A stretch of 64,000 nucleotides of DNA, from assembly GCA_038248915.1 (NCBI GenBank), contig JBBRXB010000003.1, forward strand, positions 177,416-241,415. The letters are read 5' to 3'. Within the stretch, counting starts at the first letter, position 1. Every line of letters starts with the position of its first letter. Origin of the DNA: Candidatus Limnocylindrales bacterium (lineage in GTDB: Bacteria > Chloroflexota > Limnocylindria > Limnocylindrales > CSP1-4). Of the stretch, positions 44,663 to 58,202 are shown in pieces. Made by a program: the position numbers and the translations under genes. Below the pieces are notes generated by a model that saw only the letters and a list, made by a program, of their open reading frames with translations, was not told where the DNA came from and ran no database searches.

Positions 44663-45268
44663 ATGCAACGCTACGGCCCGGGGACGGCCCTGCTCGTGGT
44701 CGACGTCCAGAACGATTTTGCGGACCCGTCCGGCAGCCTGAGCGTGGCCGGCGGCGACCGGATCGTGCCGACCATCGACCGTGAGATCGAGATGGCGACC
44801 GCGAACGGGGCGATCGTCGTGGCCACCCAGGACTGGCACCCGCCGAGCACGCCCCATTTCACCAAGGATGGTGGGCCATGGCCGGTCCATTGCGTGGCGG
44901 GCACGTGGGGCGCGGAGCTGCACCCAGACCTGGCACTCCCCGATGACGCGCCACGGATCCGCAAGGGCGCCAACGGCGAAGACGGCTATTCGGGTTTCAC
45001 CATGCGTGACCCGGTCAGGGGCGAGACGATCGCGACGGCGCTCGAGGCTGTGCTGCGCGACGCCGGCATCGAGCGGGTCGTGGTCACGGGCCTGGCCACG
45101 GACTACTGCGTCAAGGCCACCGCGCTCGATGCGGTCCGCCTCGGGTTCGAGACGGCCGTGCTGACCGACGCGATCGGTGCGGTCGACCTGGAGCCGGGCG
45201 ACGGCGACCGGGCGCTCGAGGCGATGCAGGCCGCTGGCGTGGCCATCTGGCGGACGGTGATGCGGTGA
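44663..45268 (+). CDS. pncA: Nicotinamidase/pyrazinamidase
   Basis: VDVQNDF, QDWHP, WPVHCV, KG....YSGF, GLATDYCV. Confidence 0.92.
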   Translation: MQRYGPGTALLVVDVQNDFADPSGSLSVAGGDRIVPTIDREIEMATANGAIVVATQDWHPPSTPHFTKDGGPWPVHCVAGTWGAELHPDLALPDDAPRIRKGANGEDGYSGFTMRDPVRGETIATALEAVLRDAGIERVVVTGLATDYCVKATALDAVRLGFETAVLTDAIGAVDLEPGDGDRALEAMQAAGVAIWRTVMR

Positions 45269-45834
45269 TCCGCGGCGCGGTCCGGCTGGCGCTCGTCGGG
45301 GCGGGTATCGGCTATGCGCTCGATCGCGTGCTCGCTGGGCAGGCCAAGGGCGACGAGCCCGAGCCGATCAGCTCGCTCATCGTCATCGACGCCCCGATCG
45401 AGCGGGTCTGGGCGGTCATCGCCGATATCGAGGACCAGCCCCGCTGGATGCACGAGATGAAGGCGCTGCGCGTGCTGACCGACGGCCCGATCGGGGTCGG
45501 CACAGTGGCCGAGGCCGACGTTCGCATGTACGGCATCACGGTCACCGACCCGGTGACCATCACCGAGTTCGAGCCGCCGCATCGCTACGCGATCAGCCAC
45601 GACGGCACGATCCACGGGCGTGGGGTGATCACCCTCGAGTCCGGCGCCGATGGGACGACCACGATCGTCCGCTGGGACGAGGTGCTCATCCCACCGGTCC
45701 TGTCCCATCTCGGGGCGCTGGTCATGGCTCCGGCGCTCGGGGCGATCTTCCAGGCTGACCTCGAACGGCTCAAGTCGATCGTCGAGACCGGCGCGACGGG
45801 TTCGGCGCTGGCGCCCGCGCGCTTGCCGGCCTGA
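45265..45834 (+). CDS. SRPBCC family protein
   Basis: IDAPIERVWAVIAD...P.W, EFEPP, DLERLKSIVE. Confidence 0.88.
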   Translation: MIRGAVRLALVGAGIGYALDRVLAGQAKGDEPEPISSLIVIDAPIERVWAVIADIEDQPRWMHEMKALRVLTDGPIGVGTVAEADVRMYGITVTDPVTITEFEPPHRYAISHDGTIHGRGVITLESGADGTTTIVRWDEVLIPPVLSHLGALVMAPALGAIFQADLERLKSIVETGATGSALAPARLPA

Positions 45835-45846
45835 GCGGCGACCGGG

Positions 45847-46749
45847 TTGCAGCTTCACCTCGTCGACGCGACCTACGAGCTGTTTCGGGCGCATTTCGCC
45901 CCTCGCCCGCCGGTCCTCGGACGCGACGGGATCCCGTTGTCGGGCGTTTCGGGCCTGTGCGACCAGCTGCTGTATCTCCTGCGGGAGGAAGGTGCCACGC
46001 ACGTCGGCTGCGCCACCGACCGGGTCATCGAATCGTTCCGCAACGACCTGTACCCGGGCTACAAATCGTCGGTCGGGATGCCGCCCGAGCTGCTCGCCCA
46101 GTTCCCGATCGCGGAGGCGGCCGTGGAGGCGCTCGGCATCGTGCTCTGGCCGATGGTCGACTTCGAGGCCGATGACGCGATCGCCGCGGCCGCGACGCGG
46201 TTCGGCGAGGACGAGCGCGTGGAGCGGATCGTCGTCTGCACGCCCGACAAGGACATGGCCCAGCTGGTCCGCGACGGGCGGGTGGTGCTGTGGGATCGGC
46301 GCCGCAACCTGACCTATGACGACGCCGGCGTCAGGGCCAAGTGGGGCGTGCCACCGACATCGATCCCGGACTGGCTCGGACTCGTCGGGGACGCGTCGGA
46401 CGGGTTTCCGGGGTTGCCCGGCTGGGGCGCCAAGTCGGCCGCCGCCGTGTTGGACCGCTACGGCCACTACGAGGCGATCCCACCGAAGGCGTCGGCGTGG
46501 GAGGTCCCGGGCATCGGCGGCTCTCGCGCGATGGGTCTGGCCGCGACCCTGCGCGATCACTGGGACGAGGCGCTGCTGTATCGGGACCTGGCCCGGCTGC
46601 GGACGGTCGGCGACGGCGTGCCGATCCGTCAGCAGGATGCCGACGAGCTGCGCTGGGATGGCGCCCCCCGAGACGCCTGGGAGGGCTTCTGCGAGGAATG
46701 GGGCCTCGACCGGCTGCGAACGAGACCCCACCGGTGGCTCGAGGGCTGA
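45847..46749 (+). CDS. Stand-alone 5'-3' exonuclease / flap endonuclease
   Basis: HLVD, FRNDLYPGYK, FEADD, TPDKDMAQ, H3TH motif LVGD.SDG.PG.PG.G.KSA. Confidence 0.9.
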   Translation: MQLHLVDATYELFRAHFAPRPPVLGRDGIPLSGVSGLCDQLLYLLREEGATHVGCATDRVIESFRNDLYPGYKSSVGMPPELLAQFPIAEAAVEALGIVLWPMVDFEADDAIAAAATRFGEDERVERIVVCTPDKDMAQLVRDGRVVLWDRRRNLTYDDAGVRAKWGVPPTSIPDWLGLVGDASDGFPGLPGWGAKSAAAVLDRYGHYEAIPPKASAWEVPGIGGSRAMGLAATLRDHWDEALLYRDLARLRTVGDGVPIRQQDADELRWDGAPRDAWEGFCEEWGLDRLRTRPHRWLEG

Positions 46750-46859
46750 TCGCCCGGTGGGTCGACCTGGCGGTCCGTTGCCAGGCGTAGCCGTCGTGGC
46801 GCCCGGTTGGTTCCCGATTCGTCGGTGGGTGCTGCGGGCCGCGCTCTCGACACCTGGCG

Positions 46860-47240
46860 CGATCGTCCGAAAGGTGGTCGTATCTGATATGCCACTCGAG
46901 AGCATCAGGCGTTTGGAGGCGCGGGCTCCGCACCGTGCCCGATCGCCCGAAAGGTGGTCGCATCTGATATGCCACTCGAGAGCATCAGGCGTTTGGTGGC
47001 GCGGGCTTGGCGAGCGCGCGGGCTCGTAGGGTGCAGTCGGCTTCGCCGGCCACGTCGGCCCACACCCGTCCGTCCACCGATCGGCCCACCCGTCCGTCCC
47101 ATCGGCCCATCGGCCCATCGGCCCATCGGCCCATCGGCCCCGGTGATGCTCTCGAATGACATCAACCTATGTAGGTCACGTTCGATGAACGGGGCCGCCC
47201 CGACTCGTGATGCTCTCGAGTGGCATATGCGGGCAAGGGG
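46860..47240. repeat. REP/REPIN-like repeat cluster between convergent genes
   Basis: 68-bp direct repeats at 46860 and 46940 (3 mismatches) carrying ATGCCACTCGAGAGCATCA; inverted copies at 47144 and 47208; about five CCCATCGG units near 47098. Confidence 0.85.
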
Positions 47241-47273
47241 GTCGTTCGGCGCGGCCGGCGCCACGCGCCCTCC

Positions 47274-48113
47274 CTACCGAACGAGCGCCAGTAATGCCCC
47301 GTGATGCGCGGCCGGCACCGCCACGATGCCGATCGACTTCGGGCCGTGCGCCAGGTCGAACCATGGTCCACCGCTCATCGAGGTGACGGTCGCCCCTGCC
47401 CGTTCTGCGATGAGCCCGGCGGCGGCCACATCCCACGCCGACAACCCGCCCTGCTGGATGAACGCGTCGAAGCGCCCGTTGGCGACGTACGCGAGCGCGA
47501 GCGCCGCCGAGCCCATCGAGCGCGAGATCCGGATCGCCTTGCGCACGTTGCGGGCCCGCGTCGTCGCCGTTCGCCCGTTGAGCCCCATCGAGATCACGAA
47601 ATCGGACAGCTTGTCCTTGTCCGAGGCGTGGACGGGTCGCCCGGTGAGGGTCGCCGGACCGTCGGCGGTCGCGGCGAACGCCTCATCTCGCGTCGGGTCG
47701 AGGATGACCCCGACAGCTGGCGCCCCATCGACCACCAGCCCGATCGAGACGCAGAACACGGGGATGCCGTTGGCATAATTGACCGTGCCGTCCAGCGGGT
47801 CGACGATCCATACCCGGCCGCGCCCCGAAGTCGGCGCCTCGCCCGCAACGGCCCGATGCTCGCCAGTTTCCTCGGCCAGGATCGCGTCAGCCGGGTACCG
47901 CGCCCGGATCGCGTCGAGGATGAGCGCCTCGCTCAGGTGATCAGCCTCGGTCACCACGTCGCGCGCGCTCTTGTAGTCGATCCGCTCGAGCCGCTCGTAA
48001 TGGTCCATCAGGACGACCCCGGCGCGCTCGGCGACTTCGAGCGAGAACGACAGCTCGCCCTCGTACGCCGAGACCGGCCCGGCCCCGTTCGCCGGTGCGG
48101 CGAGGTCCGTCAC
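47274..48113 (-). CDS. Inositol monophosphatase family protein (SuhB-like)
   Basis: DVVTEAD, LAEE, WIVDPLDGTVNY, GSAAL, WDVAAA.LI. Confidence 0.92.
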   Translation of the reverse strand: MTDLAAPANGAGPVSAYEGELSFSLEVAERAGVVLMDHYERLERIDYKSARDVVTEADHLSEALILDAIRARYPADAILAEETGEHRAVAGEAPTSGRGRVWIVDPLDGTVNYANGIPVFCVSIGLVVDGAPAVGVILDPTRDEAFAATADGPATLTGRPVHASDKDKLSDFVISMGLNGRTATTRARNVRKAIRISRSMGSAALALAYVANGRFDAFIQQGGLSAWDVAAAGLIAERAGATVTSMSGGPWFDLAHGPKSIGIVAVPAAHHGALLALVR

Positions 48114-48601
48114 GGCGACGAGCAGTCGACCTCGAGCGGCCGCACCGTCGACCCGAGAACCGTCACCTGCCGGCTGAACGTGACCGTCTGGCCCGGATCG
48201 ATCTTCGGGGTCAGGATGAACGCGCCCGGATTGCCCGTGCGATCGGCCAGATCGATCACCTGGCAGGTCGACTGGCCGGTGCTGGCCCCGTGGTTCGTGA
48301 CGGTCAGCGTCACCACCAACGCCCCGCCTTCACCCGCCGCGGACGCGACCGTCGCTTCGAATGGCCCGATGCCCGCGACGGCGAATTTGGCGGCGATGGC
48401 GAGGATCACGATGAACGCGATGACCCCGGCGATCGCGATGCCATGGACCTGCGAGCTCGAGACGTCGCGCAGCCCGAGTGGATTGCAGCGCTCACACAGC
48501 CCGACATCGAGCGGCACGGGCGCACCACATCGCGCGCACGCATGGGTCAGCTCGGGCTTGACGCCCGGCGCCTTTGGTGCCGCAGTCTGCGGGGTGGTCA
48601 C
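48110..48601 (-). CDS. Hypothetical membrane protein: zinc ribbon, TM, Ig-like domain
   Basis: CARC...CERC, one TM, LTVTN.G and IDPGQT motifs; GTGA overlap with the IMPase gene. Confidence 0.7.
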   Translation of the reverse strand: MTTPQTAAPKAPGVKPELTHACARCGAPVPLDVGLCERCNPLGLRDVSSSQVHGIAIAGVIAFIVILAIAAKFAVAGIGPFEATVASAAGEGGALVVTLTVTNHGASTGQSTCQVIDLADRTGNPGAFILTPKIDPGQTVTFSRQVTVLGSTVRPLEVDCSSP

Positions 48602-48977
48602 GAGGTTGATGGTGCCACGAACGGCCTGGTGTGGCGTCCGCGGCGTGCATCTGCCCGAATTGCACCCCCCCCCCCCCCCGGGTGTGAGTCGTGCCACATC
48701 GATAGGGCGGCCAGGGCGGCGTCCGGGTCACGCAGCCATCGGCGGATCGCAGCCGATCGAGATCGCCGGCCCGCCACCGAGCCACGACTTCCACGCGCAC
48801 ATCGAGGACAGCGGCGACCCGACGGATGACCCCGAGCGAGAGTGTGAGCGTGTGGCCGAGCTCCATCCGCGAGATCGTCGACGCGGAGACGTGGGCCATC
48901 GCGGCAAGATCGGCCTGTCGCCACCCGCGCTTGATGCGCATCGCCCGAACGACAGATCCGAACCGTTGGTCATCCAT
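48598..48977 (-). pseudogene. XRE-family HTH gene with an apparent internal deletion/frameshift
   Basis: MDDQRFG..VR..R...GWRQADLA..A.VS.STISRME.G HTH ending at GDLDRL near 48750; another frame then reads AIRRWLRDPDAALAALSMW into a G15 run. Confidence 0.65.
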
Positions 48978-49144
48978 GCGTGCCAGTCTCTTGCACCCAC
49001 GGACCGTTGCGGCCGGTCAACGGGCGGATTCGAGTCGATCGAAAGCCGCGCCGACCATCTGCACGCTGTCGACGGGGCGCAAGCCCAGGAGTCAACGATC
49101 GATCTTCGGCCGCAAGAGTCCCCGGGCGCAAAGGACTGGCAGAT
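48649..49144. mobile_element. Putative element bounded by imperfect inverted repeats, enclosing the HTH remnant
   Basis: ATCTGCCCGAATTGCACCC (48649-48667); reverse complement of 49124-49144 = ATCTGCCAGTCCTTTGCGCCC; internal TGCCAGTCTCTTGCACCC (48981-48998) next to the ATG. Confidence 0.45.
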
Positions 49145-49175
49145 AGTTGGGCCAAGTGTGGCCGCCACGAACCCC

Positions 49176-50099
49176 TTACCAGCGTCCGGTCGCCTCCACC
49201 AGCGCGTCGACGTCCGGCGTCGTCCGGGCGAGGACGATGGCGCCGTCCGCGCCGGCCGCCTGCCAGTGCGCCCAGGTCTCGCGCGGCTCGCGGACCCACG
49301 GCGTGTCGGCGATCGGGTCCTCGCCCAGCCAGTCGCCCTGGAACCCCACCAGCACCTGCTGGTCCTCGCGCCGCCGGCCGCTGGCGGCCAGCGATTCGAG
49401 ATAGATCGGCAGGTTGGTCTCGAAGTTGTCGTCGAACGCCGACCAGCCGTCCCCGATCCGCCCGGCCAGCCGCGACCCGGCCGGTGTCTCGCCGCCGATG
49501 ACGATCGGTGGCGGCGGATCGGGCACCGGATGGGCATACGCCTCGTGAAGCGGGTAGAACGGCGAGTCGCGGGTGACCGGGCCACCCGTCCACAGCGCCC
49601 GGATCACGGCGACGGCCTCCTCGAGACGGGCGACGCGCTCGGGCGGCGGCGGGAAATCGATGCCGTAGGCCGCGTGCTCCTTCGGGGCGCCGCCGATGCC
49701 CATCCCCAGGATCAGGCGGCCACCGCTCGCCACCTGGAGGGTCGAGGCCATCCGCGCCACGACGGTCGGGTGCCGGTTCATGACGTTCATCACGAACGGC
49801 GCGACGGTGACGCGCTCGGTCGCGGCAGCCGCCATCGCCAGGATCGTCCAGCTCTCGGTGACCGGGACCGTGAGATCGCCCCGACCCATGAAGTGGTCCC
49901 AGGCCCAGACCCCGGCATAACCCGCCGCATCCAGCCGTCGCGCGCTCTCGAGCCACCAGCGCGGCTCGCCCCGGATGGTCCGCAGACAGACCCCGATCGG
50001 CAGTCCGCCCGAGGCGTCCGCGGCCAGTCCGCCCGAGGCGCCCGCGGCCGCATCGCCCGCGGCCGCATCGCCCGTCGCCGCATCGCCCGCGGCCGTCAC
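49176..50099 (-). CDS. LLM class flavin/F420-dependent oxidoreductase
   Basis: GY.GVW.WDH, RHP..VARMASTL...SGGRL.LG.G.G, RLEEA, PIVIGG; low-complexity repeated N-terminus. Confidence 0.88.
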   Translation of the reverse strand: MTAAGDAATGDAAAGDAAAGASGGLAADASGGLPIGVCLRTIRGEPRWWLESARRLDAAGYAGVWAWDHFMGRGDLTVPVTESWTILAMAAAATERVTVAPFVMNVMNRHPTVVARMASTLQVASGGRLILGMGIGGAPKEHAAYGIDFPPPPERVARLEEAVAVIRALWTGGPVTRDSPFYPLHEAYAHPVPDPPPPIVIGGETPAGSRLAGRIGDGWSAFDDNFETNLPIYLESLAASGRRREDQQVLVGFQGDWLGEDPIADTPWVREPRETWAHWQAAGADGAIVLARTTPDVDALVEATGRW

Positions 50100-50953
50100 A
50101 GCCCGGTCTCGAACAGCCGGATGTCCTGGTCGGCCATGACGTGGCCATCACCCCGGGTCGGCCCGAGCGCCGCGCGCGCCCCCAGCGCGTCGAGATCGGC
50201 CGGGAACCGCCCGATGAGATCGAGCACGACCGCCTGGATGCGAGCCGCGTTGTGCTCGAAGACCTCGAGGACGCTCATGGCGTCGACGGCCTCGGTCCCG
50301 TCGATGACACCCGCGTCGTAATCGGTGATGAGGGCGATATTGACGACCGCGATGCCGAGCTCGCGACACAGCCACGCCTCCGGATACTGGGTCATGTTGA
50401 TGACCTCCCAGCCAGCGTCGCTGAACCACTTCGACTCGGCCTTGGTCGAGAACCGTGGGCCACCGATGACGACGACCGTCCCGGTCTCGTGGACGGGGAT
50501 GTCGTGGTCGCGGATGGTGGCGATGGCAAGTTCGCGCAGGACCGGGTCGTAGATCTCGGCCGACGACAGGTGGGTCACGATCGGGCCGTCGTAGAACGTA
50601 TCGATCCGGCCGGTCGTCCGGTCGACGAACTGATCGCACACGACGAAGTCACCGGGCTTGACCGCCAGCTGGAGCGAGCCGGCCGCGCAGGGCGAGATCG
50701 CCGCCTTGACCCCGAGCGAGCGCATCGCCCACACGTTGGCTCGGTAGTTGATCTTGTGCGGCGGGATCGTATGGCGGCGGCCGTGGCGTGGCAGGAAGGC
50801 GACGCGTCGGCCGCCGACGTCGGCGAGGAAGATCGAATCGGATGGCGGGCCATACGGCGTGTCGACCTTGACCTCGCGCACGTCCTCGAGCAACGAGTAG
50901 AACCCCGAGCCGCCGAAGACCCCGATCTCCGCCGTGTCCGAACCGTGCGCCAC
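50096..50953 (-). CDS. mtnP: S-methyl-5'-thioadenosine phosphorylase
   Basis: GVFGGSG, TPYG.PS, FLPRHG..H..PPH.INYRAN, GPRFSTKAES, NMT..PE, TDYD; GGAGG SD before GTG 50953 (alternative ATG at 50965). Confidence 0.92.
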   Translation of the reverse strand: MAHGSDTAEIGVFGGSGFYSLLEDVREVKVDTPYGPPSDSIFLADVGGRRVAFLPRHGRRHTIPPHKINYRANVWAMRSLGVKAAISPCAAGSLQLAVKPGDFVVCDQFVDRTTGRIDTFYDGPIVTHLSSAEIYDPVLRELAIATIRDHDIPVHETGTVVVIGGPRFSTKAESKWFSDAGWEVINMTQYPEAWLCRELGIAVVNIALITDYDAGVIDGTEAVDAMSVLEVFEHNAARIQAVVLDLIGRFPADLDALGARAALGPTRGDGHVMADQDIRLFETGL

Positions 50954-51045
50954 GATCGCCTCCATCGCTTGGCCGACGCGAGGGCCGGATCGTGACCGAT
51001 TCTAGCGCGGTCGCGCGGACGGTCACGTTCTACGATGGGCGCGCC

Positions 51046-51387
51046 ATGACACTGCCCGATCCGACCGAACGAACCACGACCGAACCGCCGCCACTGGATC
51101 CGACGCCACCGAGTCCCCCGCCGAGCGCGACCCCGCCGAGCGCGACCCCGCCGAGTCCGCCACCCACGACACCGCCGGTACCGGCCTGGGCGCCGCCCCC
51201 GGCGGACCACGGTCGTGGCCTCTCGCTCATCGTCGGCGTGATCATCCTGATCGTCGGCGCCTGGTTCTTCGCCACGCGGACGCTGGGGCTCGACCTGCCC
51301 GACCTCGACTGGGACCAGCTCTGGCCGGTCATCCTCATCCTCATCGGATCGTGGATCGTCTATGCCTCGGTCCGCCGTGCCCGCTGA
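51046..51387 (+). CDS. Small membrane protein (LiaF-TM/DUF5668-like) with a Pro-rich N-terminus
   Basis: GVIILIVGAWFF...LWPVILILIG motif. Confidence 0.75.
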   Translation: MTLPDPTERTTTEPPPLDPTPPSPPPSATPPSATPPSPPPTTPPVPAWAPPPADHGRGLSLIVGVIILIVGAWFFATRTLGLDLPDLDWDQLWPVILILIGSWIVYASVRRAR

Positions 51388-52045
51388 CTGGGTCCAGGGC
51401 GATGGATCCGCGACGGACCGTGCCTGGTTGGCCGACTGGCGTCGTCGTGTGGCGGCGCTCTACGCGGAGGTCCGCGGCATGGCGGTCAACGACCCGGACG
51501 TGGCCTTGGCGCACTGGCGAGCCGTCCGCGAAAGCCTCTTCCGTGAGCACCCGCAGTCACCGGTGCCGGTCGATCGCCGAGCGAGCTTCCGGGCCCAGCA
51601 CTTCGTCCACGACCCGAGCCTGCGTTTCGAGGTGACCGTCGAACCGGGCCCAGCGCCGGCGCCAGGGGCCTTCGCGATCGAGCTCCCCGACAGCGGCGCG
51701 GACGCGTTGTCGTTCAGCTGCATCGGGCGGGTCAGCCTGCCGTTCGCCCAGGGGCCGCGCTCGCTGTCCGTGTTCTGGATGGCCGGCTATGCGGGCGGCC
51801 TGTTCATCCCGTTCCGGGACGCGACCAACGGCACCGAGACGTACGGCGCGGGTCGCTATCTCGTCGATGCCGCCAAGAGCGCCGATCTCGGCGGCGACCC
51901 GTCGGCCGGGACGCTCATCCTCGACTTCAACTTCGCGATCCAGCCGTCGTGCGCGTTCGATCCCCGCTGGGCGTGCCCGCTGGCACCACCGGAAAACCGG
52001 CTGGACCTCCCGATCCGTGCGGGCGAGCGGCTGCCACCCGTCTGA
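51377..52045 (+). CDS. DUF1684 domain protein
   Basis: HPQSP, F.PFRDATNG.ETYGAGRYL, LDFNFA.QPSCAFD..W.CPL.PPENRL. Confidence 0.92.
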   Translation: MPADWVQGDGSATDRAWLADWRRRVAALYAEVRGMAVNDPDVALAHWRAVRESLFREHPQSPVPVDRRASFRAQHFVHDPSLRFEVTVEPGPAPAPGAFAIELPDSGADALSFSCIGRVSLPFAQGPRSLSVFWMAGYAGGLFIPFRDATNGTETYGAGRYLVDAAKSADLGGDPSAGTLILDFNFAIQPSCAFDPRWACPLAPPENRLDLPIRAGERLPPV

Positions 52046-52111
52046 CCGCTCGCCATCCGACCGTACCAAGGGGCCATCGACGCTCATCCGGCGGGCTCCC
52101 AAGATGGACCG

Positions 52112-53323
52112 ATGCGGTTCCTCTCGCCGTCCCGGCGATCGGGCAACGAGCGCCTGCTGTGGTCACGCGACATCCGCTTCGTGCGGCGTCTTGCGGCGCG
52201 CCTCGAGGACGGGCACGTCCTGGACCTGGAGACGGGGAGCGTGCTCGTCGGACCGGCCGACGCGCTGACGGAGGCCCTGGCCAGCGAGGTCGCCCATGCC
52301 GCCAACTGGCCCGAATACGGTCTGGTCGCGGTGGATGACACGCTGCCGGAGCGCGACCGCTACCTCGTCGCGATGTCGTCGGCCGTCCAGCTGTCCGGGC
52401 TCGCCGATCGGATCGGGATGGCCCAGTCGACGCAGGTCGTCCAGACCAAGATGCTCGACTACTTCTTCAGCCTCCGGAAGCTCCATCGCGTCGCCTACCA
52501 GCCGATCACCCACCTGGCGACCGGGCAGCTGTACGAGTACGAGTGCGTCTTCCGACCGGACATGCCGATGCTTCCGCAGTCGATCACCTCGGTCGTCCAG
52601 GCGGCGATCAGCACGGACCGCGGGGTCGAGCTCGACGTGTACATCGTGGCGACGATCCTCGAAGAGGTCGGCCGCCTCGAGGCCGCCCAGCGGGAAGCCG
52701 GCGGCGAGCCCCGCCGCTACGCCATCAACCTGACCCCGTACAGCATCCTCGACCCGGCGTTCGAGGCGCAGGCGCTGGCCGCCCAGGTCCGCGCGGCCGG
52801 GCTCGATCCGCGCCAGATCACGATCGAATGCACCGAGCAGCAGTCCGTGCCCGACATCGGGGTCCTCTACCGCCAGGTCCGGGCGTTGCGCAAGGCCGGC
52901 TTCGGGTTCGCGGTCGATGACGCGGGCGCCGGGTTCGCCAGCTTCTCGCTCATCGCCGCCCTGCGCCCGTCGGTCATCAAGATCGACCGCGAGATCATCC
53001 ACGGCATCGGCCACGACGACGCCAAGCAGGCCCTCGTCGAGGCGTTCGTGTCGTTCGGCCGCCGGATCGGCGCGCATCTGCTGGCCGAGGGCATCGAGCG
53101 GCGCGCGGACGTGACGGCCCTGACGACGCTCAACGTCGAGTTCGGCCAGGGCTATCTGCTCGGCCGGCCGGCACCGACGCCGATGCCGCCGAGACACCTC
53201 GATCGGGTCGTTCGCGCGGCCGGGGCCAAGGTCGGGGCACGGACCTCCGTCGCGCGGATGGGCCGGTCCACGAGCGCCGGTGATGCCGCCACGGCCCGGG
53301 CTCGGCTACCATCGAGGGCATGA
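52112..53323 (+). CDS. EAL-domain c-di-GMP phosphodiesterase with an unknown N-terminal region
   Basis: YQPI, ECVFR (EAL position), AINL, IECTE, AVDDAGAG, IKIDR, AEGIE, GQGYLLGRP. Confidence 0.88.
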   Translation: MRFLSPSRRSGNERLLWSRDIRFVRRLAARLEDGHVLDLETGSVLVGPADALTEALASEVAHAANWPEYGLVAVDDTLPERDRYLVAMSSAVQLSGLADRIGMAQSTQVVQTKMLDYFFSLRKLHRVAYQPITHLATGQLYEYECVFRPDMPMLPQSITSVVQAAISTDRGVELDVYIVATILEEVGRLEAAQREAGGEPRRYAINLTPYSILDPAFEAQALAAQVRAAGLDPRQITIECTEQQSVPDIGVLYRQVRALRKAGFGFAVDDAGAGFASFSLIAALRPSVIKIDREIIHGIGHDDAKQALVEAFVSFGRRIGAHLLAEGIERRADVTALTTLNVEFGQGYLLGRPAPTPMPPRHLDRVVRAAGAKVGARTSVARMGRSTSAGDAATARARLPSRA

Positions 53324-53760
53324 CCGAACCACCAACCGTCGCCTTCCCGGACCACATCCGCACCTTCCTCGACGACGAGCGATACGCCACGATCTCGACC
53401 CTCGACCCCGATGGCGGCCCACGCCAGGCCGTCGTCTGGTACACGGTCGATGGCGACGAGATCGTCATCAACAGCCGGGCCGGGCGGCGCTGGCCGACCA
53501 ACCTCCTGCGCGATGCTCGTGTCGCGCTGGCGGTCATCGATTGCGGCCGCGGCGAGCGCTGGGTCGGCGTGACGGGCACGGTCCGTCCGATCACGGACTG
53601 GGCGACGGCCCAGGGCGACATCGCCGCGATGGCCCGTCGGTATCCGGCCGAGAGCCCCGAGGAGGCCGAGCGCACGATCACCGAGCAGTTCGAGCGCCAG
53701 GAGCGGATCAGCTTCCGGATCCGGCCGGCCGCCTTTCACGACCACCTGGACGACGAATGA
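53320..53760 (+). CDS. PPOX-class (split-barrel) F420-dependent oxidoreductase
   Basis: ATISTL.PDG.P....VWY, NL.RD.RVAL; own TACCAT -10 upstream. Confidence 0.85.
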   Translation: MTEPPTVAFPDHIRTFLDDERYATISTLDPDGGPRQAVVWYTVDGDEIVINSRAGRRWPTNLLRDARVALAVIDCGRGERWVGVTGTVRPITDWATAQGDIAAMARRYPAESPEEAERTITEQFERQERISFRIRPAAFHDHLDDE

Positions 53761-54683
53761 CGCGCTTCGGGCTCCAGCTCTGGTCGCAGCAGACCGATTG
53801 GCCGGGCTTCCGGGACGCGGCGCTCGCCGCCGAGGCCGCCGACTGGGATTCGGTCTGGACGTGGGATCACCTGATGGCCATCTTCGGGCCGTGGGAGCAG
53901 CCGATCTTCGAGGGCTGGAGCGTCCTGGCCGGCGTCGCCGCCCTGACGTCTCGGGTGCGGCTCGGGCTGATGGTCGGGGCCAACACGTTCCGCAACCCGG
54001 GTCACACGGCCAAGCTGGCCACGACCCTCGACCACCTGTCGGGCGGCCGGGCCGTGCTCGGCATCGGTGGCGCCTGGTTCGAGCGCGAGCACGATGCCTA
54101 CGGGATCGACTTCTTCTCGGGCCACGGCGAGCGGCTCGACCGGCTCGACGAGGCGGTCATGCTCATGCGCCGACTGCTCGATGGTGAGCGGTTCAGCCAC
54201 GAGGGCCGCTTCTATACGTTCCACGACGCGCTGTGCTCGCCGCGCCCGATCCAGAGCCACCTGCCGATCCTCGTCGGCGGGTCGGGGCCGCGCAAGACGC
54301 TCCGGACCGTCGCGCTGCGGGCCGACGGCTGGAACACGAGCGGCTCGCTCGAGGAGGTCCGAACCAGGCTGGACCTGCTGGCCGAGCACTGCTCGGATGT
54401 GGGCCGCGACCTCGGCCATATCGAGAAGACCGTCAGCTTCCCGATCGTCCTGCGCGACGACCGAGCCGCCGCGGCGGCTGTTTACGACACGCTCCTGGCC
54501 GCGAACGGGATCGAACAGATGGAGAGCAGTACGGCACTGCTCGGGAGCCCGACCGAGGTGGCCGACGCGCTCCGGCCGTACGCCGAGCTCGGCTTCCGGA
54601 CCGTCATCGTGCGGATGCCGGCCCCCTACGACCACGAGACCATCGACCGAATGGCGCGGGTCGCCGAGCTCCTCGAGGCGTGA
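53757..54683 (+). CDS. LLM class F420-dependent oxidoreductase
   Basis: WTWDH, EGW..LA, FRNPG..AK..TTLDHLSGGR..LGIGG.W.EREH, PILVGG.G.RKT. Confidence 0.9.
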   Translation: MTRFGLQLWSQQTDWPGFRDAALAAEAADWDSVWTWDHLMAIFGPWEQPIFEGWSVLAGVAALTSRVRLGLMVGANTFRNPGHTAKLATTLDHLSGGRAVLGIGGAWFEREHDAYGIDFFSGHGERLDRLDEAVMLMRRLLDGERFSHEGRFYTFHDALCSPRPIQSHLPILVGGSGPRKTLRTVALRADGWNTSGSLEEVRTRLDLLAEHCSDVGRDLGHIEKTVSFPIVLRDDRAAAAAVYDTLLAANGIEQMESSTALLGSPTEVADALRPYAELGFRTVIVRMPAPYDHETIDRMARVAELLEA

Positions 54684-54687
54684 TCGC

Positions 54688-55623
54688 GTGAAGGTCGTGG
54701 CGCTCGCGGGTGGGACCGGCGGCGCGAAGCTGGCCCACGGCCTGCAGGCCATCCTGCCACCGGGTGACCTGACCGTCATCGCCAACACCGGCGACGATAC
54801 GGAACGCCACGGCCTGCTGGTCATGCCCGACCACGACGCGGTCATGTACATGCTGGCCGGGCGGTTCGACGACGAACGCGGCTGGGGTCTCGCCGGCGAG
54901 ACCTGGACCGTGATGGACGGCCTGACCGAATACGGCGAAGCCGGCTGGTTCCGGCTCGGTGACCGGGACTTCGCCACGCACATCGCGCGGACTGCCCGGC
55001 TGGCCGATGGCACCGGGCTGACCGCCGTCGTGCGCTCGCTCCAGGCGGCGCTCGGCATCCCGACCGCGATCCTGCCGATGGCCGACCAGCCGGTGCGAAC
55101 CCAGGTCCGGACCGACGAGAGCTGGCTCGACTTCCAGGAGTACTTCGTCCATCGCCACCAGGCGCCCGAGGTGCGAGAGATCCGATACGCCGGGATCGAG
55201 GCCGCGCGACCGACGGCCGACGTGGCTGCCGCGCTCGCGGCGACCGAGGTCGTGGTCATCGGTCCGTCGAACCCACTCGTGTCGATCGGGCCGATCCTGG
55301 CCGTGCCGGGCATGACCGATCGGATGGAGGCCGCCCGAGCCCGGGGCGTGCCGGTCGTCGCGGTCAGCGGCATCGTCGGTGGCGTCGCACTCAAGGGCCC
55401 GGCCGATCGGATGCTGACCTCGCTCGGTCACGAATCGAGCGCCCGGGGAGTGGCGGCGCAGTACGCCGATCACCTCGATGCATTCGTGCTCGACACGGTC
55501 GACGCGGCGCTCGAACCGGCCATCGCGGCGCTCGGGCTGCGCACGCTCGTGACCGACACGATCATGGCCGATCATGCGGGTCGAGCCCGTCTCGCGCGGA
55601 CCATCCTGGGCTTCATCCGGTGA
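54688..55623 (+). CDS. cofD: 2-phospho-L-lactate / PEP transferase (F420 synthesis)
   Basis: LAGGTGGAK, NTGDD, WF.LGDRD.ATH..RT, FQEYFV, GPSNP.VSI.PIL, KGPA. Confidence 0.94.
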   Translation: MKVVALAGGTGGAKLAHGLQAILPPGDLTVIANTGDDTERHGLLVMPDHDAVMYMLAGRFDDERGWGLAGETWTVMDGLTEYGEAGWFRLGDRDFATHIARTARLADGTGLTAVVRSLQAALGIPTAILPMADQPVRTQVRTDESWLDFQEYFVHRHQAPEVREIRYAGIEAARPTADVAAALAATEVVVIGPSNPLVSIGPILAVPGMTDRMEAARARGVPVVAVSGIVGGVALKGPADRMLTSLGHESSARGVAAQYADHLDAFVLDTVDAALEPAIAALGLRTLVTDTIMADHAGRARLARTILGFIR

Positions 55624-56243
55624 CGCGGGTCGCGGCGATCGTCCCGGTCGGCACGCTCGATGGGGCCAAGACGAGGCTGGGTGATGCGCTCGATGCGGAG
55701 GAGCGGCAGGATCTCGTCGATGGCCTCCTGGTACGGACCGTGGTGGCCGCTCTGGCCGTCGATCGGATCGATGATGTGCTGGTCGTCAGCCCCGACCGCG
55801 AGGTCCTGCGCCGCTCCGCGGATCTTGGCGCGCGCACCCTCCACCAGCGCTCCCGCGGGCTCAACCGTGGTCTCGCCGAAGCCCGCGTGGACGTCGTCGC
55901 GGGCGGTGCCGATACGATCCTGGTGTTCCCGATCGACCTCCCATTCGTCGATGCCGAGGCCGTGACCGCGGTCGTGGCGGCGCTCGAGGCCGGAGCCCCG
56001 GCACGGACCGTCGTCCTCGTCACGGACCGACACGGCACCGGCACGAATGCGCTGGGGCTGCGCCCGCCGGATGTGATCGAGTTCGCGTTCGGGCCAGGCA
56101 GCCGCCGCGCCCATCGGGCCGCAGCCTCGGGCGCCGGGGCGATCTACACCGAGGTCGACGGGCCGCTCATGGTCGATCTCGATACGCCCGACGATCTGGT
56201 GTACGTCGAATCCAGCCAGGAGGAGGGCCTCGGTGTCGGCTGA
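55620..56243 (+). CDS. cofC: 2-phospho-L-lactate / PEP guanylyltransferase
   Basis: AKTRL, GLN, DLP, DRHGTGTNAL, FG.GS...H, DLDTPDDL. Confidence 0.93.
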   Translation: MTRVAAIVPVGTLDGAKTRLGDALDAEERQDLVDGLLVRTVVAALAVDRIDDVLVVSPDREVLRRSADLGARTLHQRSRGLNRGLAEARVDVVAGGADTILVFPIDLPFVDAEAVTAVVAALEAGAPARTVVLVTDRHGTGTNALGLRPPDVIEFAFGPGSRRAHRAAASGAGAIYTEVDGPLMVDLDTPDDLVYVESSQEEGLGVG

Positions 56244-57006
56244 TCGGACGATCCGCATCCTCGCCCTCGACGGCATCCCGGAGGTCCGTGCCGGCGACGA
56301 CCTCGGCGCGTTCATCGGCAACGCCCTGGGCCGGACGTCGGGCGCGCTGCCGCTAACGCTCGATGACGTCCTCGTCGTCACCCAGAAGATCGTGTCGAAG
56401 GCCGAGGGCGCGGTGGTCGACCTGACGACGGTCGTGCCCCGCCGGGCGGCTGTGAAGTTCGCCAAGCGGTTCGATCGCGACGCTCGCCAGGTGGAGGTCG
56501 TCCTGCGCGAGGCGCGCCGCATCGTTCGGATGCAGGACGGCGTGCTCATCACGGAGACGGCCCACGGGTTCGTCTGCGCGAACGGCGGGATCGATGCCTC
56601 GAACGTAGGATCCGATTCGGGCTCGGTCGTGACCCTCCTGCCGGTCGACCCCGATCGTTCCGCCGCCGTCATCCGGGCGTCGGTGCGCGCGCGGTTCGGC
56701 ATCGACGTGCCAGTCGTGATGTCCGACTCGTTCGGCCGGCCCTGGCGCTGGGGCATCGTCGATGTCGCGATCGGCGTGTCGGGTCTGCTGCCGTTGGAGG
56801 ATCTGCGCGGCTCGCCCGACGCGGATGGCCGGATCATGCGGTCCACCGTGCGTGCCGTCGCGGACGAGCTCGCCTCCGCAGCCGAGCTGAGCCTTGGCAA
56901 GACCGACGGCCATCCCGTGGCGCTGGTGCGCGGCGCCACGTTCACCCGCGGTGAGGCCACGATCCGCGAGGCTCTCATCCCCCGCGAGAACGACCTCTTT
57001 CCCTGA
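56233..57006 (+). CDS. cofE: Coenzyme F420-0:L-glutamate ligase (ligase domain only)
   Basis: GIPEV..GDDL, QKIVSKAEG, CANGGIDASN, LP.DPD.SA, DSFGRPWR.G, ADELASAA.L..GK. Confidence 0.94.
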   Translation: MSADRTIRILALDGIPEVRAGDDLGAFIGNALGRTSGALPLTLDDVLVVTQKIVSKAEGAVVDLTTVVPRRAAVKFAKRFDRDARQVEVVLREARRIVRMQDGVLITETAHGFVCANGGIDASNVGSDSGSVVTLLPVDPDRSAAVIRASVRARFGIDVPVVMSDSFGRPWRWGIVDVAIGVSGLLPLEDLRGSPDADGRIMRSTVRAVADELASAAELSLGKTDGHPVALVRGATFTRGEATIREALIPRENDLFP

Positions 57007-57039
57007 CGGCACCCTCAGCATCGTCGGAGCACGACACGG

Positions 57040-57317
57040 CCCCCACCCTCGCGTATGCCACTCGAGAGCATCAACTGGCGAGCTGCGGCTGATGCCGCTC
57101 CGAGAGGCCATCGTCGCGGGTGCCGCCCCGCCTCGCCGGGACACCTGCAGCCGCCGCCCGCCGACCAGAACATGGTTGATGCCAGTCGAGAGCATCTTGA
57201 TGCCAGTCGAGGGCATCACGTCGCGGGGGGTCGACGGCATCGGGCGCGAAAGCTGACGTGTGGACGCTCCGGCTCCCCGATCGCGATGCTCTAGAGTGGC
57301 ATACGAGGGTGAGGGGG
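57040..57317. repeat. MITE/REPIN-like element with roughly 30-bp imperfect terminal inverted repeats
   Basis: CCCCACCCTCGCGTATGCCACTCGAGAGCATC (left) versus GATGCTCTAGAGTGGCATACGAGGGTGAGGGGG (right); internal 21-bp tandem TTGATGCCAGTCGAG[A/G]GCATC at 57176 and 57197. Confidence 0.85.
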
Positions 57318-57356
57318 TTGTTCGAGATGGACGGGCCGCGTGGCAGGCCCACCGGA

Positions 57357-58202
57357 CTACCCGTGCAAGAACCGCTCCAGGAACGTTCGGGTCCGCTCGT
57401 CGCGTGGGTTCGAGATGACCTGTTCGGGTGGGCCGATCTCCACGAACTGGCCTTCGTCCATGAAGTAGACCCGGTCGGCAGCCTCACGCGCGAACGCCAT
57501 CTCATGGGTCACGACGATCATCGTCCGACCCTCGTGGGCGAGGCTCTCCATGACCTTGAGGACCTCGCCGACGAGCGACGGATCCAGGGCACTGGTCGGC
57601 TCGTCGAACAGCAACACCTCGGGCTCCATCGTCAGCGCCCGCGCGATCGCCACGCGCTGACGCTGACCGCCAGACAGCCTTGACGGATACTCGTCGCGTT
57701 TGTCGCTGAGTCCGACCTTGGCGAGGTAGGTCTCGCCGAGCTCGGTGGCCTCCTTCTTGTTCATCCCCTTCACGTGGATCGGGGCCTCGACGAGGTTGCC
57801 GATGACACTGAGATGCGGGAACAGATTGAACTCCTGGAACAGCATTCCGGCGCGCAGCCGCAGTTGCCGGATCTTGGCCTCGTCAGCTCGGTCGCGTCGA
57901 TGGAGCGGCGATGCCGCGACGACGACCCCACCGATCTCGACGACCCCGGCGGTGGGTTCCTCCAGGAAGTTGAGGCACCGGAGGAACGTGCTCTTGCCCG
58001 ACCCGGACCGCCCGAGGATCGTCACGGTTTCGCCGGGGAAGACCGTCATCGAACATCCGCGCAGCACGTGGTTGTCGTCGAAGTGCTTCTCGATGGCGCT
58101 CGCCTTGACGATCGGTTCGGCGCCGGGTTTGACCATGTGCCCCGGAACCTCGGCCGGATCGATCACGTGTTCGAGCCGCACGACATCCTCGATCTTGTTC
58201 AT
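57357..58202 (-). CDS. Polar amino-acid ABC transporter ATP-binding protein (GlnQ family)
   Basis: GRSGSGKST.LRC.N.LE, FNLFPH, LSGGQRQRVAIARAL, FDEPTSALDP, VTHEM.FA. Confidence 0.93.
   Translation of the reverse strand: MNKIEDVVRLEHVIDPAEVPGHMVKPGAEPIVKASAIEKHFDDNHVLRGCSMTVFPGETVTILGRSGSGKSTFLRCLNFLEEPTAGVVEIGGVVVAASPLHRRDRADEAKIRQLRLRAGMLFQEFNLFPHLSVIGNLVEAPIHVKGMNKKEATELGETYLAKVGLSDKRDEYPSRLSGGQRQRVAIARALTMEPEVLLFDEPTSALDPSLVGEVLKVMESLAHEGRTMIVVTHEMAFAREAADRVYFMDEGQFVEIGPPEQVISNPRDERTRTFLERFLHG

What the first reader, a model, noticed from the sequence alone, without database searches (positions are those of the whole stretch)
48598..49144. Candidate new system: XRE-HTH(-nuclease) cassette bracketed by the same box that builds the gene-less repeat elements
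Seen: an HTH gene cut short at GDLDRL and fused out of frame to a tail (AIRRWLRDPD...LSMW), enclosed by imperfect inverted ends ATCTGCC...TTGC[A/G]CCC (48649 and 49144), with a third copy 3 nt upstream of the ATG. Two of these boxes (TGCCAGTC-TCTT-GCA, TGCCAGTC-CTTT-GCG) match the repeat core at 46.9 and 57.1 kb (TGCCA[C/G]TC-GAGA-GCA) as TGCCASTC-N4-GC. From recollection only, full-length proteins starting MDD.R.G...R...GWRQ.DLA carry a central PD-(D/E)XK/DUF559-like domain, which would be the deleted part. Inference: a non-transposase selfish element or REP-maintaining system, analogous to RAYT-REPIN, seen here decaying into a MITE-like form.
Basis: partly seen in the sequence, partly recalled or inferred. 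Interest (0 to 1): 0.8.

Follow-up and report, generated by a model that had tools for sequence, protein, structure and literature searches.

The report
Decaying nuclease gene with foldback repeats
This is a broken copy of a small DNA-binding nuclease gene that, in soil Chloroflexota, travels as a cassette bracketed by its own 160-base foldback repeats, a layout like known repeat-plus-enzyme partnerships but built on a different enzyme type.

Summary
The gene at 48492-48977 (-) is a real pseudogene. An intact 247-aa ortholog lies at the same locus in a related genome. It shows that the window copy lost residues ~77-196 and shifted frame. The family is an XRE-type DNA-binding domain joined to a restriction-endonuclease-fold (PD-(D/E)xK) nuclease with an invariant D..ExK motif. 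It was found in 53 of 61 genomes searched in the genus, at 0-9 matches each.

Unit-gene-unit cassettes recur at two loci, one per subfamily, each subfamily with its own unit sequence. They are absent as a whole from most relatives. At the second locus they sit in either orientation, with a unit tip at the same boundary. That locus's unit type also occurs as ~22 gene-less copies in this genome.

The claimed link to the ATGCCACTCGAGAGCAT repeats at 46.9 and 57.1 kb is not supported. The shared pattern occurs at chance level, and none of those repeats lies beside a family gene.

That the nuclease acts on its own units is inferred, not shown. Two earlier notes of this scan describe the same kind of cassette in other Chloroflexota genomes.

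The parts
48750..48977 (-). 5' fragment of the pseudogene: codons 1-76 (MDD...GDLDRL), XRE-type HTH domain
   Evidence: Pfam HTH_3 and HTH_31. 74% identical over 76 aa to the intact syntenic ortholog in G010.
48748..48749 (-). Deletion junction: two bases (CG) between the two gene fragments. About 120 codons (residues ~77-196 of the ortholog, the nuclease core) are missing and the frame is shifted.
   Evidence: Sequence and alignment to L003.
48694..48747 (-). 3' fragment of the pseudogene in another frame: IRRWLRDPDAALAALSMW, the conserved tail motif of the family
   Evidence: Aligns to VVKRWLRNPDNPVSALSMW of the G010 ortholog and to the WLR.P....LS.W block of alignment A1.
48649..48696 (.).
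   Evidence: Compared with the intact downstream unit of G010 (L003 906-941 and 1038-1067). In another sample the C run is 4 shorter and 48679 reads G.
48981..49141 (.). Intact upstream foldback unit of 161 nt. Arms 48981-49015 and 49107-49141. It ends 3 nt before the ATG.
   Evidence: the repeat finder I1: 35-nt arms, 80% complementary. Fold -95.4 kcal/mol, z -6.35. Single copy in this genome. Homologous units lie at the same locus in G010, G049, G070 and G002.
48608..48622 (-). Motif GTTCGTGGCACCATC just before the GTG start (48599-48601) of the next gene (zinc-ribbon membrane protein). It marks the downstream edge of the insertion site.
   Evidence: Present by eye, with small variants, in all 30 loci. 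In the 21 empty sites it follows the stop of the luciferase-like gene after a spacer of 25-123 nt in all (stop codon to the next gene's start).
49164..49172 (-). Second copy of GTTCGTGGC, directly after the stop (49176-49178) of the luciferase-like gene. Possibly a 9-nt direct duplication of the target.
   Evidence: Sequence. I saw no clear equivalent in G010 or G049, so this is weak.

Best explanation
The locus is a decaying copy of a unit-gene-unit cassette. The gene encodes a ~245-aa protein made of an XRE-type helix-turn-helix domain and a PD-(D/E)xK (restriction-endonuclease-fold) nuclease domain. It is bracketed by two direct copies of a ~160-nt foldback unit. The downstream unit starts inside the last ~30 codons of the gene. 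Shown here: the pseudogene, the fold and catalytic motif, the bracketing units, and presence or absence of the cassette as a whole. Also shown are two orientations at one site with a unit tip at the boundary, and gene-less copies of one unit type. Inferred: the protein docks on its own units through the HTH domain and cuts there, perhaps when the unit extrudes as a hairpin or cruciform. The break would then be repaired by recombination. That would excise, invert or copy the cassette and occasionally seed solo units. This would be a repeat-plus-enzyme partnership like RAYT-REPIN or IS-MITE, run by a different enzyme class. In this window the system is dead: the nuclease core and most of the downstream unit are deleted.
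For: Gene and fold.
- Intact syntenic ortholog and paralogs.
- D117, E132 and K134 are invariant in 26 of 26 aligned members; E104 is nearly invariant.
- AlphaFold model, mean pLDDT 87.5. Residues ~80-222 match NucS 2vld (Z 9.9), Upx 9wuf (Z 9.8), 2okf (Z 9.8) and AF1548 1y88 (Z 9.3).

Units tied to the gene.
- Complementarity between the coding tail and the DNA after the stop is higher for cognate than for non-cognate pairs. 17 of 38 loci reach the 95th percentile of non-cognate pairs; Mann-Whitney p 1e-8, with related loci not independent.
- Similarity between the upstream region and the 3' region is the row maximum in 10 of 39 loci.

Window subfamily.
- Homologous units flank the gene in G000, G010, G049 and G070, and one stands alone at the same site in G002.
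- Among 30 loci anchored on the neighbouring gene: 4 carry the gene, 21 are empty with 25-123-nt spacers, 1 has a solo unit, 1 a toxin-antitoxin-like pair, 1 other repeats, and 2 are rearranged.
- Empty sites within the gene-bearing clade look like outgroup empty sites.

Second subfamily (contig C16).
- A different ~160-nt unit with sharp ends, GTTCTTGCCA...TGGCAAGAAC.
- 41 model matches, about 22 loci, in G000. Model R1 matched in 14 of 61 genomes.
- Beside the E2 acyltransferase gene, 6 of 30 loci carry the gene. All 20 model matches fall in those 6 loci and none in the 24 gene-less loci.
- Three cassettes are divergent to E2 and three are co-oriented. In G070 and G010, which have opposite orientations, the outer unit tip lies 8-9 nt before the same promoter-region motif.

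Decay. A contig from another study skips 52 nt of the gene remnant and replaces 202 nt with 19 letters.
Against: - No direct evidence that the protein binds or cuts the units.
- 29 of 39 loci show no upstream-versus-3' similarity above background. 21 of 38 show no tail hairpin above the 95th percentile.
- The window-type unit is not dispersed. It has no other copy in G000, and in a search of G000, G010, G049, G070 and G002 only the query's own place matched.
- Most dispersed copies of the second unit are only 60-75% identical to the C16 reference unit, so nothing shows recent activity.
- No target-site duplication is visible at 12 solo units.
- Copies within one genome are divergent paralogs (31-42% in G000).
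- Each subfamily sits at one syntenic locus. The gene-bearing genomes fall in one clade. One ancient gain followed by losses therefore fits as well as mobility.
- No compensatory changes in the unit alignment, 0 of 19 predicted pairs, so there is no support for an RNA structure. This says nothing about DNA hairpins.
Confidence: 0.45

Rival explanations
1. An ordinary accessory gene (a regulator, or a one-protein defence or addiction module) sits in a variable intergenic hotspot. The foldback units belong to its transcript or operator: an autoregulatory site upstream and a 3' hairpin that stabilises the mRNA. They move with the gene only because they are part of it. The dispersed solo units were spread by something else.
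For: - The HTH domain is most like restriction-modification controller proteins and HipB antitoxins (C.BclI E 6.4e-10; C.AhdI Z 11.4). Such proteins bind operators in their own promoters (background knowledge, not a call).
- The same intergenic site holds a toxin-antitoxin-like pair in G023: DUF5615/PIN-like plus a weak ribbon-helix-helix match.
- The subfamilies are syntenic and the paralogs divergent.
- The nuclease domain resembles that of the anti-phage protein Upx (Z 9.8; weak hits).
- The window unit folds strongly as RNA.
Against: - Solo units have sharp ends and unrelated flanks at ~22 loci. A private operator or UTR does not predict this.
- The cassette boundary coincides with the outer unit tip in both orientations.
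- No compensatory changes support an RNA structure.
- No PADLOC or NCBIfam model is matched at a meaningful score.
Confidence: 0.3
2. The units are MITE-like remnants of an unrelated transposon with terminal inverted repeats. Either they tend to insert next to or into the 3' end of these genes, or two of them made the gene a passenger of a composite element. The nuclease plays no part.
For: - The units have terminal inverted repeats and a fixed length.
- One type is dispersed, with very uneven counts between genomes: 41 matches in G000, 21 in G072, none in 47 of 61.
- The whole cassette has inverted termini.
Against: - Two subfamilies each have their own unit sequence at the same relative positions.
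- The left arm encodes the family's conserved protein tail.
- No target-site duplication.
- BLAST and model matches in G000 are unit-sized or shorter, with no longer element carrying these ends. The genome is only 72% complete.
Confidence: 0.15
3. One reading: the boxes around the gene are the same element as the ATGCCACTCGAGAGCAT repeats at 46.9 and 57.1 kb, and the nuclease maintains those repeats.
For: Both share the words TGCCA[CG]TC and GC four bases later. Both are palindromic intergenic repeats in one genome.
Against: - The pattern occurs at chance level outside the true repeats: 24 observed against ~21 extrapolated.
- None of the 59 boxes in 9 genomes lies within 1 kb of a family gene listed.
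- Contigs C16 and C12, which carry the other two paralogs of G000, hold no true repeat box.
- In those repeats TGCCAC lies inside a ~35-nt inverted repeat, not at its tip.
Confidence: 0.03
4. The truncation, frameshift and C run are assembly artefacts, and the real gene is intact.
For: The genome is a metagenome bin of 29 contigs, 72% complete. A 15-base homopolymer is error-prone.
Against: - A second assembly of the probable source run gives the same 1201 bases at word depth 17.
- A contig from another study reproduces 48468-48744, including the tail fragment and a shorter C run. Another contig from that study shows an even more deleted form.
Confidence: 0.03

Closest known systems
REPIN-RAYT systems (REP doublets plus a REP-associated tyrosine transposase)
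   Same: - An enzyme gene is flanked by its own palindromic repeats.
- Each gene subfamily has its own repeat sequence.
- There is usually one copy per subfamily, at a fixed locus inherited vertically.
- Gene-less copies of one unit type are dispersed, with very uneven numbers between genomes.
The RAYT properties are recalled. From the listing I saw only titles and abstracts: PMC5581495, PMC8049555, PMC8266576.
   Different: - The enzyme is HTH plus PD-(D/E)xK, not an HUH/Y1 transposase (PF01797 not found in G000).
- Units are ~160 nt with 35-45-nt arms, not 20-40-nt REPs with a GTAG or CGTC head.
- The downstream unit overlaps the coding tail.
- The two units are direct copies.
- The window-type unit is not dispersed at all.
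Insertion sequences and their MITE derivatives
   Same: The cassette has inverted termini. It occurs as a whole or not at all, in either orientation at one site. Short gene-less derivatives keep both ends.
   Different: No recognised transposase family, no target-site duplication, no identical multiple copies of the gene-bearing form, and two complete foldback units rather than two simple ends.
Restriction-modification controller (C) proteins with their C-box operators, and type II restriction endonucleases
   Same: The HTH domain is closest to C.AhdI and C.BclI. The C-terminal domain has the restriction-endonuclease fold. Palindromic DNA motifs sit in front of the gene.
   Different: The two are fused in one protein. 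The four neighbouring genes scanned here hold no methyltransferase domain; they are inositol monophosphatase, a zinc-ribbon protein, a luciferase-like oxidoreductase and, by my reading of the translation, a methylthioadenosine phosphorylase. The repeats are 160-nt foldbacks on both sides of the gene.
Small PD-(D/E)xK nucleases: NucS/EndoMS, the 2okf protein (fdxN element excision controlling factor), AF1548, and the nuclease domains of Upx, Can2/Card1 and Shedu SduA
   Same: Fold of residues ~80-222 (Z 9.3-9.9, 104-115 residues aligned; SduA and PfoI by Foldseek). Conserved E..D..ExK motif.
   Different: Identity is 10-20% and no Pfam model is reached. None of these is described with an XRE domain and cognate flanking foldback repeats, as far as my searches showed (listings only).

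Membership tests
XRE-family helix-turn-helix proteins (Pfam HTH_3 / HTH_31) | Sequence match to the HTH models above the curated cut-off | tested here: met
   Window ORF: HTH_3 42.9 bits (cut-off 23), HTH_31 43.1 bits (cut-off 27). All 26 of 26 aligned family members match both models.
PD-(D/E)xK nuclease superfamily | Alpha/beta core fold of restriction endonucleases | tested here: met
   Model with pLDDT 87.5. Residues 80-222 align to NucS, 2okf, AF1548, Upx and Can2 at Z 9.3-9.9. The model is of the G010 ortholog; the window copy lacks this domain.
PD-(D/E)xK nuclease superfamily | Catalytic motif D...(D/E)xK with an upstream acidic residue | tested here: met
   D117, E132 and K134 invariant in 26 of 26; E104 nearly invariant.
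PD-(D/E)xK nuclease superfamily | Metal-dependent nuclease activity | not testable with these tools
   Needs the purified protein.
   No DUF559 hit among 26 members at E <= 0.1. Only sub-threshold hits to other PD-(D/E)xK families: MmcB-like in 3 of 26, MTES_1575 in 2, YhcG_C in 2.
RAYT-REPIN | HUH/Y1 (IS200-like) transposase | tested here: not met
   The protein is HTH plus PD-(D/E)xK. PF01797 has no match in G000, which is 72% complete.
RAYT-REPIN | Gene flanked by its cognate palindromic repeats | tested here: met
   Window subfamily in G000, G010, G049 and G070. C16 subfamily in G000, G070 and G067, with one unit in G010, G061 and G065.
RAYT-REPIN | Dispersed population of the repeat in the genome | tested here: inconclusive
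   Met for the C16-type unit (about 22 loci in G000). Not met for the window-type unit.
IS / MITE | Terminal inverted repeats | tested here: met
   Arms of 35 nt. Ends GTTCTTGCCA / TGGCAAGAAC.
IS / MITE | Target-site duplication | tested here: inconclusive
   None seen at 12 solo units. A possible 9-nt repeat GTTCGTGGC occurs in G000 only.
IS / MITE | Recognised transposase and several near-identical autonomous copies | tested here: not met
   No transposase domain. Paralogs within G000 are 31-42% identical.
Restriction-modification system with C protein | Adjacent methyltransferase | tested here: not met
   The four neighbours scanned with Pfam hold no methyltransferase domain. Only the immediate neighbours were checked.
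Known anti-phage defence systems (PADLOC) | Match to a defence-system model | tested here: inconclusive
   Only weak hits: HTH_VI E 0.0016, PDC-S02 E 0.011, Upx E 0.024.

The most novel reading that the evidence does not exclude
The HTH-PD-(D/E)xK protein is the working enzyme of its own foldback units. It would be a repeat-plus-enzyme system (IS-MITE-like or RAYT-REPIN-like) run by a restriction-endonuclease-fold nuclease rather than a DDE, HUH, serine or tyrosine enzyme. It would cut the units and let host recombination excise, invert and copy the cassette bounded by inverted termini and seed solo units. If so, a family with at least 3,695 related proteins, now annotated only as XRE-family regulators, would be a new class of mobile or domesticated element.
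Probability: 0.3. Interest if true: 0.85.

Novelty: new variant of a known kind. Interest (0 to 1): 0.6.

Why it matters
Repeat-plus-enzyme partnerships such as REPIN-RAYT and IS-MITE shape bacterial genomes. To my knowledge (recalled, not from a call) they have been described only with DDE, HUH, serine or tyrosine enzymes.

Here a small nuclease of the restriction-endonuclease fold, joined to a repressor-like DNA-binding domain, keeps cognate 160-nt foldback units on both sides of its gene. This holds in two subfamilies at two loci. The whole cassette is gained, lost and flipped as one piece.

If the nuclease acts on these units, the family would be a new way of moving or maintaining DNA repeats. 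It holds at least 3,695 related proteins in public data, named only as XRE-family regulators. It would also be a source of sequence- or structure-specific nucleases.

If the nuclease does not act on the units, the family is still an unannotated HTH-nuclease fusion with an unusual gene-end hairpin.

For this window the practical result is plain. The locus is a dead copy, and its supposed link to the neighbouring repeats is coincidence.

Tried and rejected
- Rfam: no match in window 45000-59000. In L001 and L003 only a sub-threshold radC hit, 24 bits against a gathering score of 40.
- RNA structure of the dispersed unit: RNAalifold found 0 of 19 pairs with compensatory change, so I built a sequence-only model.
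- Model R1 found nothing in the window at E <= 0.1. The window-type and C16-type units cannot be joined into one family by sequence.
- A shared tip, TGCCAG: it occurs in the window unit and the C16-type unit. The G010 unit has GGCAAG instead, and in the 46.9-kb repeats TGCCAC is internal. I dropped it as a common signal.
- A 1.45-kb interval between two ATGCCACTCGAGAGCAT boxes in G059 was checked as a possible autonomous element. By my reading of its ORFs it holds an ordinary hydrolase-like gene and no obvious transposase; no family search was run.
- PDB profile search matched the HTH domain only.
- NCBIfam and PADLOC gave only weak hits.
- Counting pseudogenes from the 'stops inside' column was abandoned, because several of those stops are the natural stop of shorter members.
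- A match on contig C18 to residues 174-234 of the C16 protein turned out to be a solo unit behind a tandem repeat, not a gene remnant.
- Sequencing runs: X3 and X4 cover only 48200-48380 and say nothing about the cassette. No contig from outside the probable source sample bridges 48748-48750.
- Paper searches (titles and abstracts of the listings, plus one passage of PMC2701414, which was only a reference-list entry) showed no description of this family or layout. This covers only the held library and those terms.
Full report
**What is in the window.** All genes around the finding lie on the minus strand. In order they are:
- a methylthioadenosine-phosphorylase-like gene, 50096-50965 (my reading of its translation; not scanned against a family library);
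- a luciferase-like oxidoreductase, 49176-50099 (Bac_luciferase, E 9e-48);
- the HTH ORF, 48492-48977;
- a zinc-ribbon membrane protein that most likely starts at the GTG at 48599-48601;
- an inositol monophosphatase, 47274-48113 (E 2.2e-58).

The HTH ORF matches HTH_3 and HTH_31 over residues 5-68. After ...GDLDRL (last base 48750) it runs into unrelated sequence. Two bases later, in another frame, it reads IRRWLRDPDAALAALSMW (48747-48694).

**The two fragments come from one gene.**
- tblastn against the window's own genome (2.78 Mb, 29 contigs, 72% complete) places both fragments, in order and on one strand, on an intact 250-aa gene on contig C16. A second intact paralog lies on C12.
- Genome G010 of the same genus has an intact 247-aa gene between the same neighbours. 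It is 74% identical over the first 76 residues, and its tail VVKRWLRNPDNPVSALSMW aligns with the window's second fragment.
- The window copy therefore lacks residues ~77-196 and is frameshifted.
- Logan's assembly of the probable source run reproduces the 1201 bases exactly. Contigs from another study reproduce 48468-48744 and show an allele with two further deletions: 52 nt, and 202 nt replaced by 19 letters. No contig from outside the probable source sample bridges the junction itself.

**What the protein is.**
- An alignment of 26 genus members (A1) has an invariant D117, E132 and K134 (GERGxID...(V/I)E(L/I)K), a nearly invariant E104, and a conserved tail WLR.P....LS.W...RRVR.
- The AlphaFold model of the G010 protein has mean pLDDT 87.5: an HTH domain (1-63), a linker, an alpha/beta domain (80-222) and a disordered basic tail.
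- The HTH domain is closest to C.AhdI, C.BclI and HipB.
- Residues 80-222 match PD-(D/E)xK nucleases: NucS 2vld (Z 9.9), Upx 9wuf (Z 9.8), 2okf (Z 9.8), AF1548 (Z 9.3), Can2 and Card1 (about Z 9), and the R2 endonuclease domain (Z 8.4). Foldseek adds SduA and PfoI.
- No Pfam model covers the nuclease domain. There are only sub-threshold hits to MmcB-like, MTES_1575 and YhcG_C.
DUF559 itself does not.
- The family is large: at least 3,695 proteins at E <= 1e-5 among 8,000 scored. They are named only as XRE-family regulators, from Chloroflexota and Candidatus Limnocylindrales bins (record titles).
- In the genus it was found in 53 of 61 genomes at E <= 1e-20, with 0-9 matches each. With the 76-aa fragment it was found in 0 of 16 genomes of the neighbouring family.

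**The boxes.**
- Boxes B and C are the tips of one inverted repeat: arms 48981-49015 and 49107-49141, 35 nt, 80% complementary. It forms a 161-nt foldback (-95.4 kcal/mol, z -6.35, matched by 0 of 200 shuffles) that ends 3 nt before the ATG. It is single-copy in this genome.
- In G010 the same ~36-nt arm motif occurs four times, as two inverted pairs. One pair lies upstream of the gene. The other has its left arm inside the last codons (...WQDVRPQTVKAG) and its right arm after the stop.
- G049 and G070 have homologous units around their syntenic genes. G002 has a single unit at the same site and no gene.
- In that light, box A with the run of 15 C (48665-48679) is the collapsed remnant of the window's downstream unit.

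**No link to the 46.9 and 57.1 kb repeats.**
- Those repeats are a separate family with core ATGCCASTC[GT]AG[AG]GCAT inside ~35-nt inverted repeats. There are 36 boxes in G000 and 1-7 in 8 of 60 other genomes.
After removing the 36 true boxes, 24 remain, against ~21 extrapolated from the rate.
- No box lies within 1 kb of any family gene listed. Contigs C16 and C12 of G000 hold no true repeat box.
- No Y1/RAYT transposase was found in G000.

**The cassette is a unit of gain and loss at the window locus.** Thirty loci anchored on the zinc-ribbon gene divide as follows:

| Number of loci | Content of the spacer |
|---|---|
| 21 | empty, 25-123 nt between the oxidoreductase stop and the next gene's start, with a GTTCGTGGCACCATC motif (small variants) just before that start |
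| 4 | the gene with its units (G000 broken, G010 intact, G049 with an in-frame TAG, G070 intact) |
| 1 | solo unit (G002) |
| 1 | toxin-antitoxin-like pair (G023; DUF5615, E 4.5e-12) |
| 1 | other repeats |
| 2 | rearranged |

- Further filled sites appear in two more bins.
- On a tree of the two flanking proteins, the four gene-bearing genomes lie in one 14-row clade (support 93/88). That clade also holds 8 empty and 2 rearranged sites, and the rearranged ones are sisters of G010 and G070.
- The inner empty sites look like the outgroup empty sites. That means either precise loss or repeated insertion at one spot. One gain followed by about four losses is equally parsimonious.

**A second subfamily shows the same design with a different unit.**
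- The C16 gene's last 37 codons lie in a ~160-nt unit with sharp ends (GTTCTTGCCA...TGGCAAGAAC), a directly repeated core ACGAATGTGG in both arms, and a conserved centre CACGCTCGAT. Another copy lies 160 nt upstream, and a tandem copy lies downstream.
- Twelve full copies with unrelated flanks were aligned (A2). They show no target-site duplication and no compensatory changes.
- A sequence model (R1) finds 41 matches, about 22 loci, in G000. It finds 21 in G072, 10 each in G065 and G070, 9 in G067, and none in 47 of 61 genomes.
- Beside the E2 acyltransferase gene, 6 of 30 loci carry a C16-like gene. All 20 model matches fall in those six loci and none in the 24 others.
- Three cassettes face away from E2 and three face towards it. 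In G070 and G010, which have opposite orientations, the outer unit tip lies 8-9 nt before the same GGCTCGACC promoter-region motif.
- The cassette therefore behaves as one piece with inverted termini.

**How general the association is.**
- Across 38 loci, complementarity between the coding tail and the DNA after the stop exceeds the 95th percentile of non-cognate pairs in 17. It is the row maximum in 9. Mann-Whitney p is 1e-8, with related loci not independent.
- Similarity between the upstream region and the 3' region is the row maximum in 10 of 39 loci. One of the four strongest, L044, is a GC-rich low-complexity match that I do not trust.
- So about half the members carry the 3' foldback and about a quarter have a recognisable second copy upstream. 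The rest show neither above background.

**Reading.**
- Shown: the pseudogene, the protein architecture, the cognate bracketing units, whole-cassette presence or absence, the two orientations, the solo units, and ongoing decay.
- Inferred: the nuclease docks on and cuts its own units, and recombination does the rest.
- Against activity: paralogs within a genome are divergent. Each subfamily keeps one home locus. Most dispersed units are 60-75% identical to the reference unit. The window-type unit is not dispersed. No biochemical data exist.
- The closest analogue in behaviour is RAYT-REPIN. The system fails that family's defining enzyme and repeat features, so it is an analogue and not a member.

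**Earlier notes of this scan.** Notes e1-5093296 and e1-2850234 describe the same kind of cassette in two other Chloroflexota genomes. They agree with this reading but are not independent evidence. Notes on other parts of this genome call it a soil Chloroflexota, which fits the record titles of relatives.

Noticed in passing
window 46860-47230 and 57040-57318: A separate repeat family with core ATGCCASTC[GT]AG[AG]GCAT inside ~35-nt inverted repeats. It usually occurs as one or two forward boxes followed by a reverse box, 80-500 nt apart, between convergent genes. There are 36 boxes in this genome and few or none in relatives (52 of 61 genomes have none). No associated gene was found.
   Followed up: partly
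window 48665-48679: A run of 15 C at the centre of the collapsed downstream unit. A contig from another study has it 4 bases shorter, with C>G at 48679. This looks like a slippage-prone tract.
   Followed up: partly
window 48608-48622, and the same place in L014-L043: The motif GTTCGTGGCACCATC, 6 nt before the GTG start of the zinc-ribbon gene, is kept with small variants in all 30 genus loci examined by eye. It may be a promoter or leader element. It loosely resembles the tip of the C16-type unit (GTTCTTGCCACCTAC).
   Followed up: no
L033 (G023) 2032-2843: At the same intergenic site another genome carries a two-gene toxin-antitoxin-like insert: a weak ribbon-helix-helix match (E 0.0014) followed by DUF5615/PIN_10 (E 4.5e-12). 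The site is therefore a hotspot for small accessory modules.
   Followed up: partly
L131, L133, L134, L145, L152, L158 (upstream of the E2 acyltransferase gene): The C16-type cassette lies directly upstream of the E2 gene in six genomes, in two orientations (three and three). In G067 the unit tip next to E2 is tandemly triplicated (ATCTGGCGGAAACCTG, three copies).
   Followed up: partly
L024 (G070), between the gene and the zinc-ribbon gene: About seven tandem copies of GGGGAGCGGCCACACAAC, which contains part of the unit's right-arm sequence (GGCCACAACGG). Arm fragments seem to multiply locally.
   Followed up: no
window 47098-47140: A perfect 8-nt tandem repeat, CCCATCGG, 5.4 copies, inside the 46.9-kb repeat cluster.
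   Followed up: no
L015 (G059) and L022 (G067): In the sister genomes of two cassette carriers (G010 and G070), the oxidoreductase and phosphorylase genes are replaced by other genes exactly at the insertion point, right before the conserved motif. This suggests rearrangements at the cassette site.
   Followed up: no
L099: One close homolog (64% identical) lies on a 3-kb contig of a bin labelled Candidatus Methylomirabilota. This could be a binning error or a transfer outside Chloroflexota.
   Followed up: no
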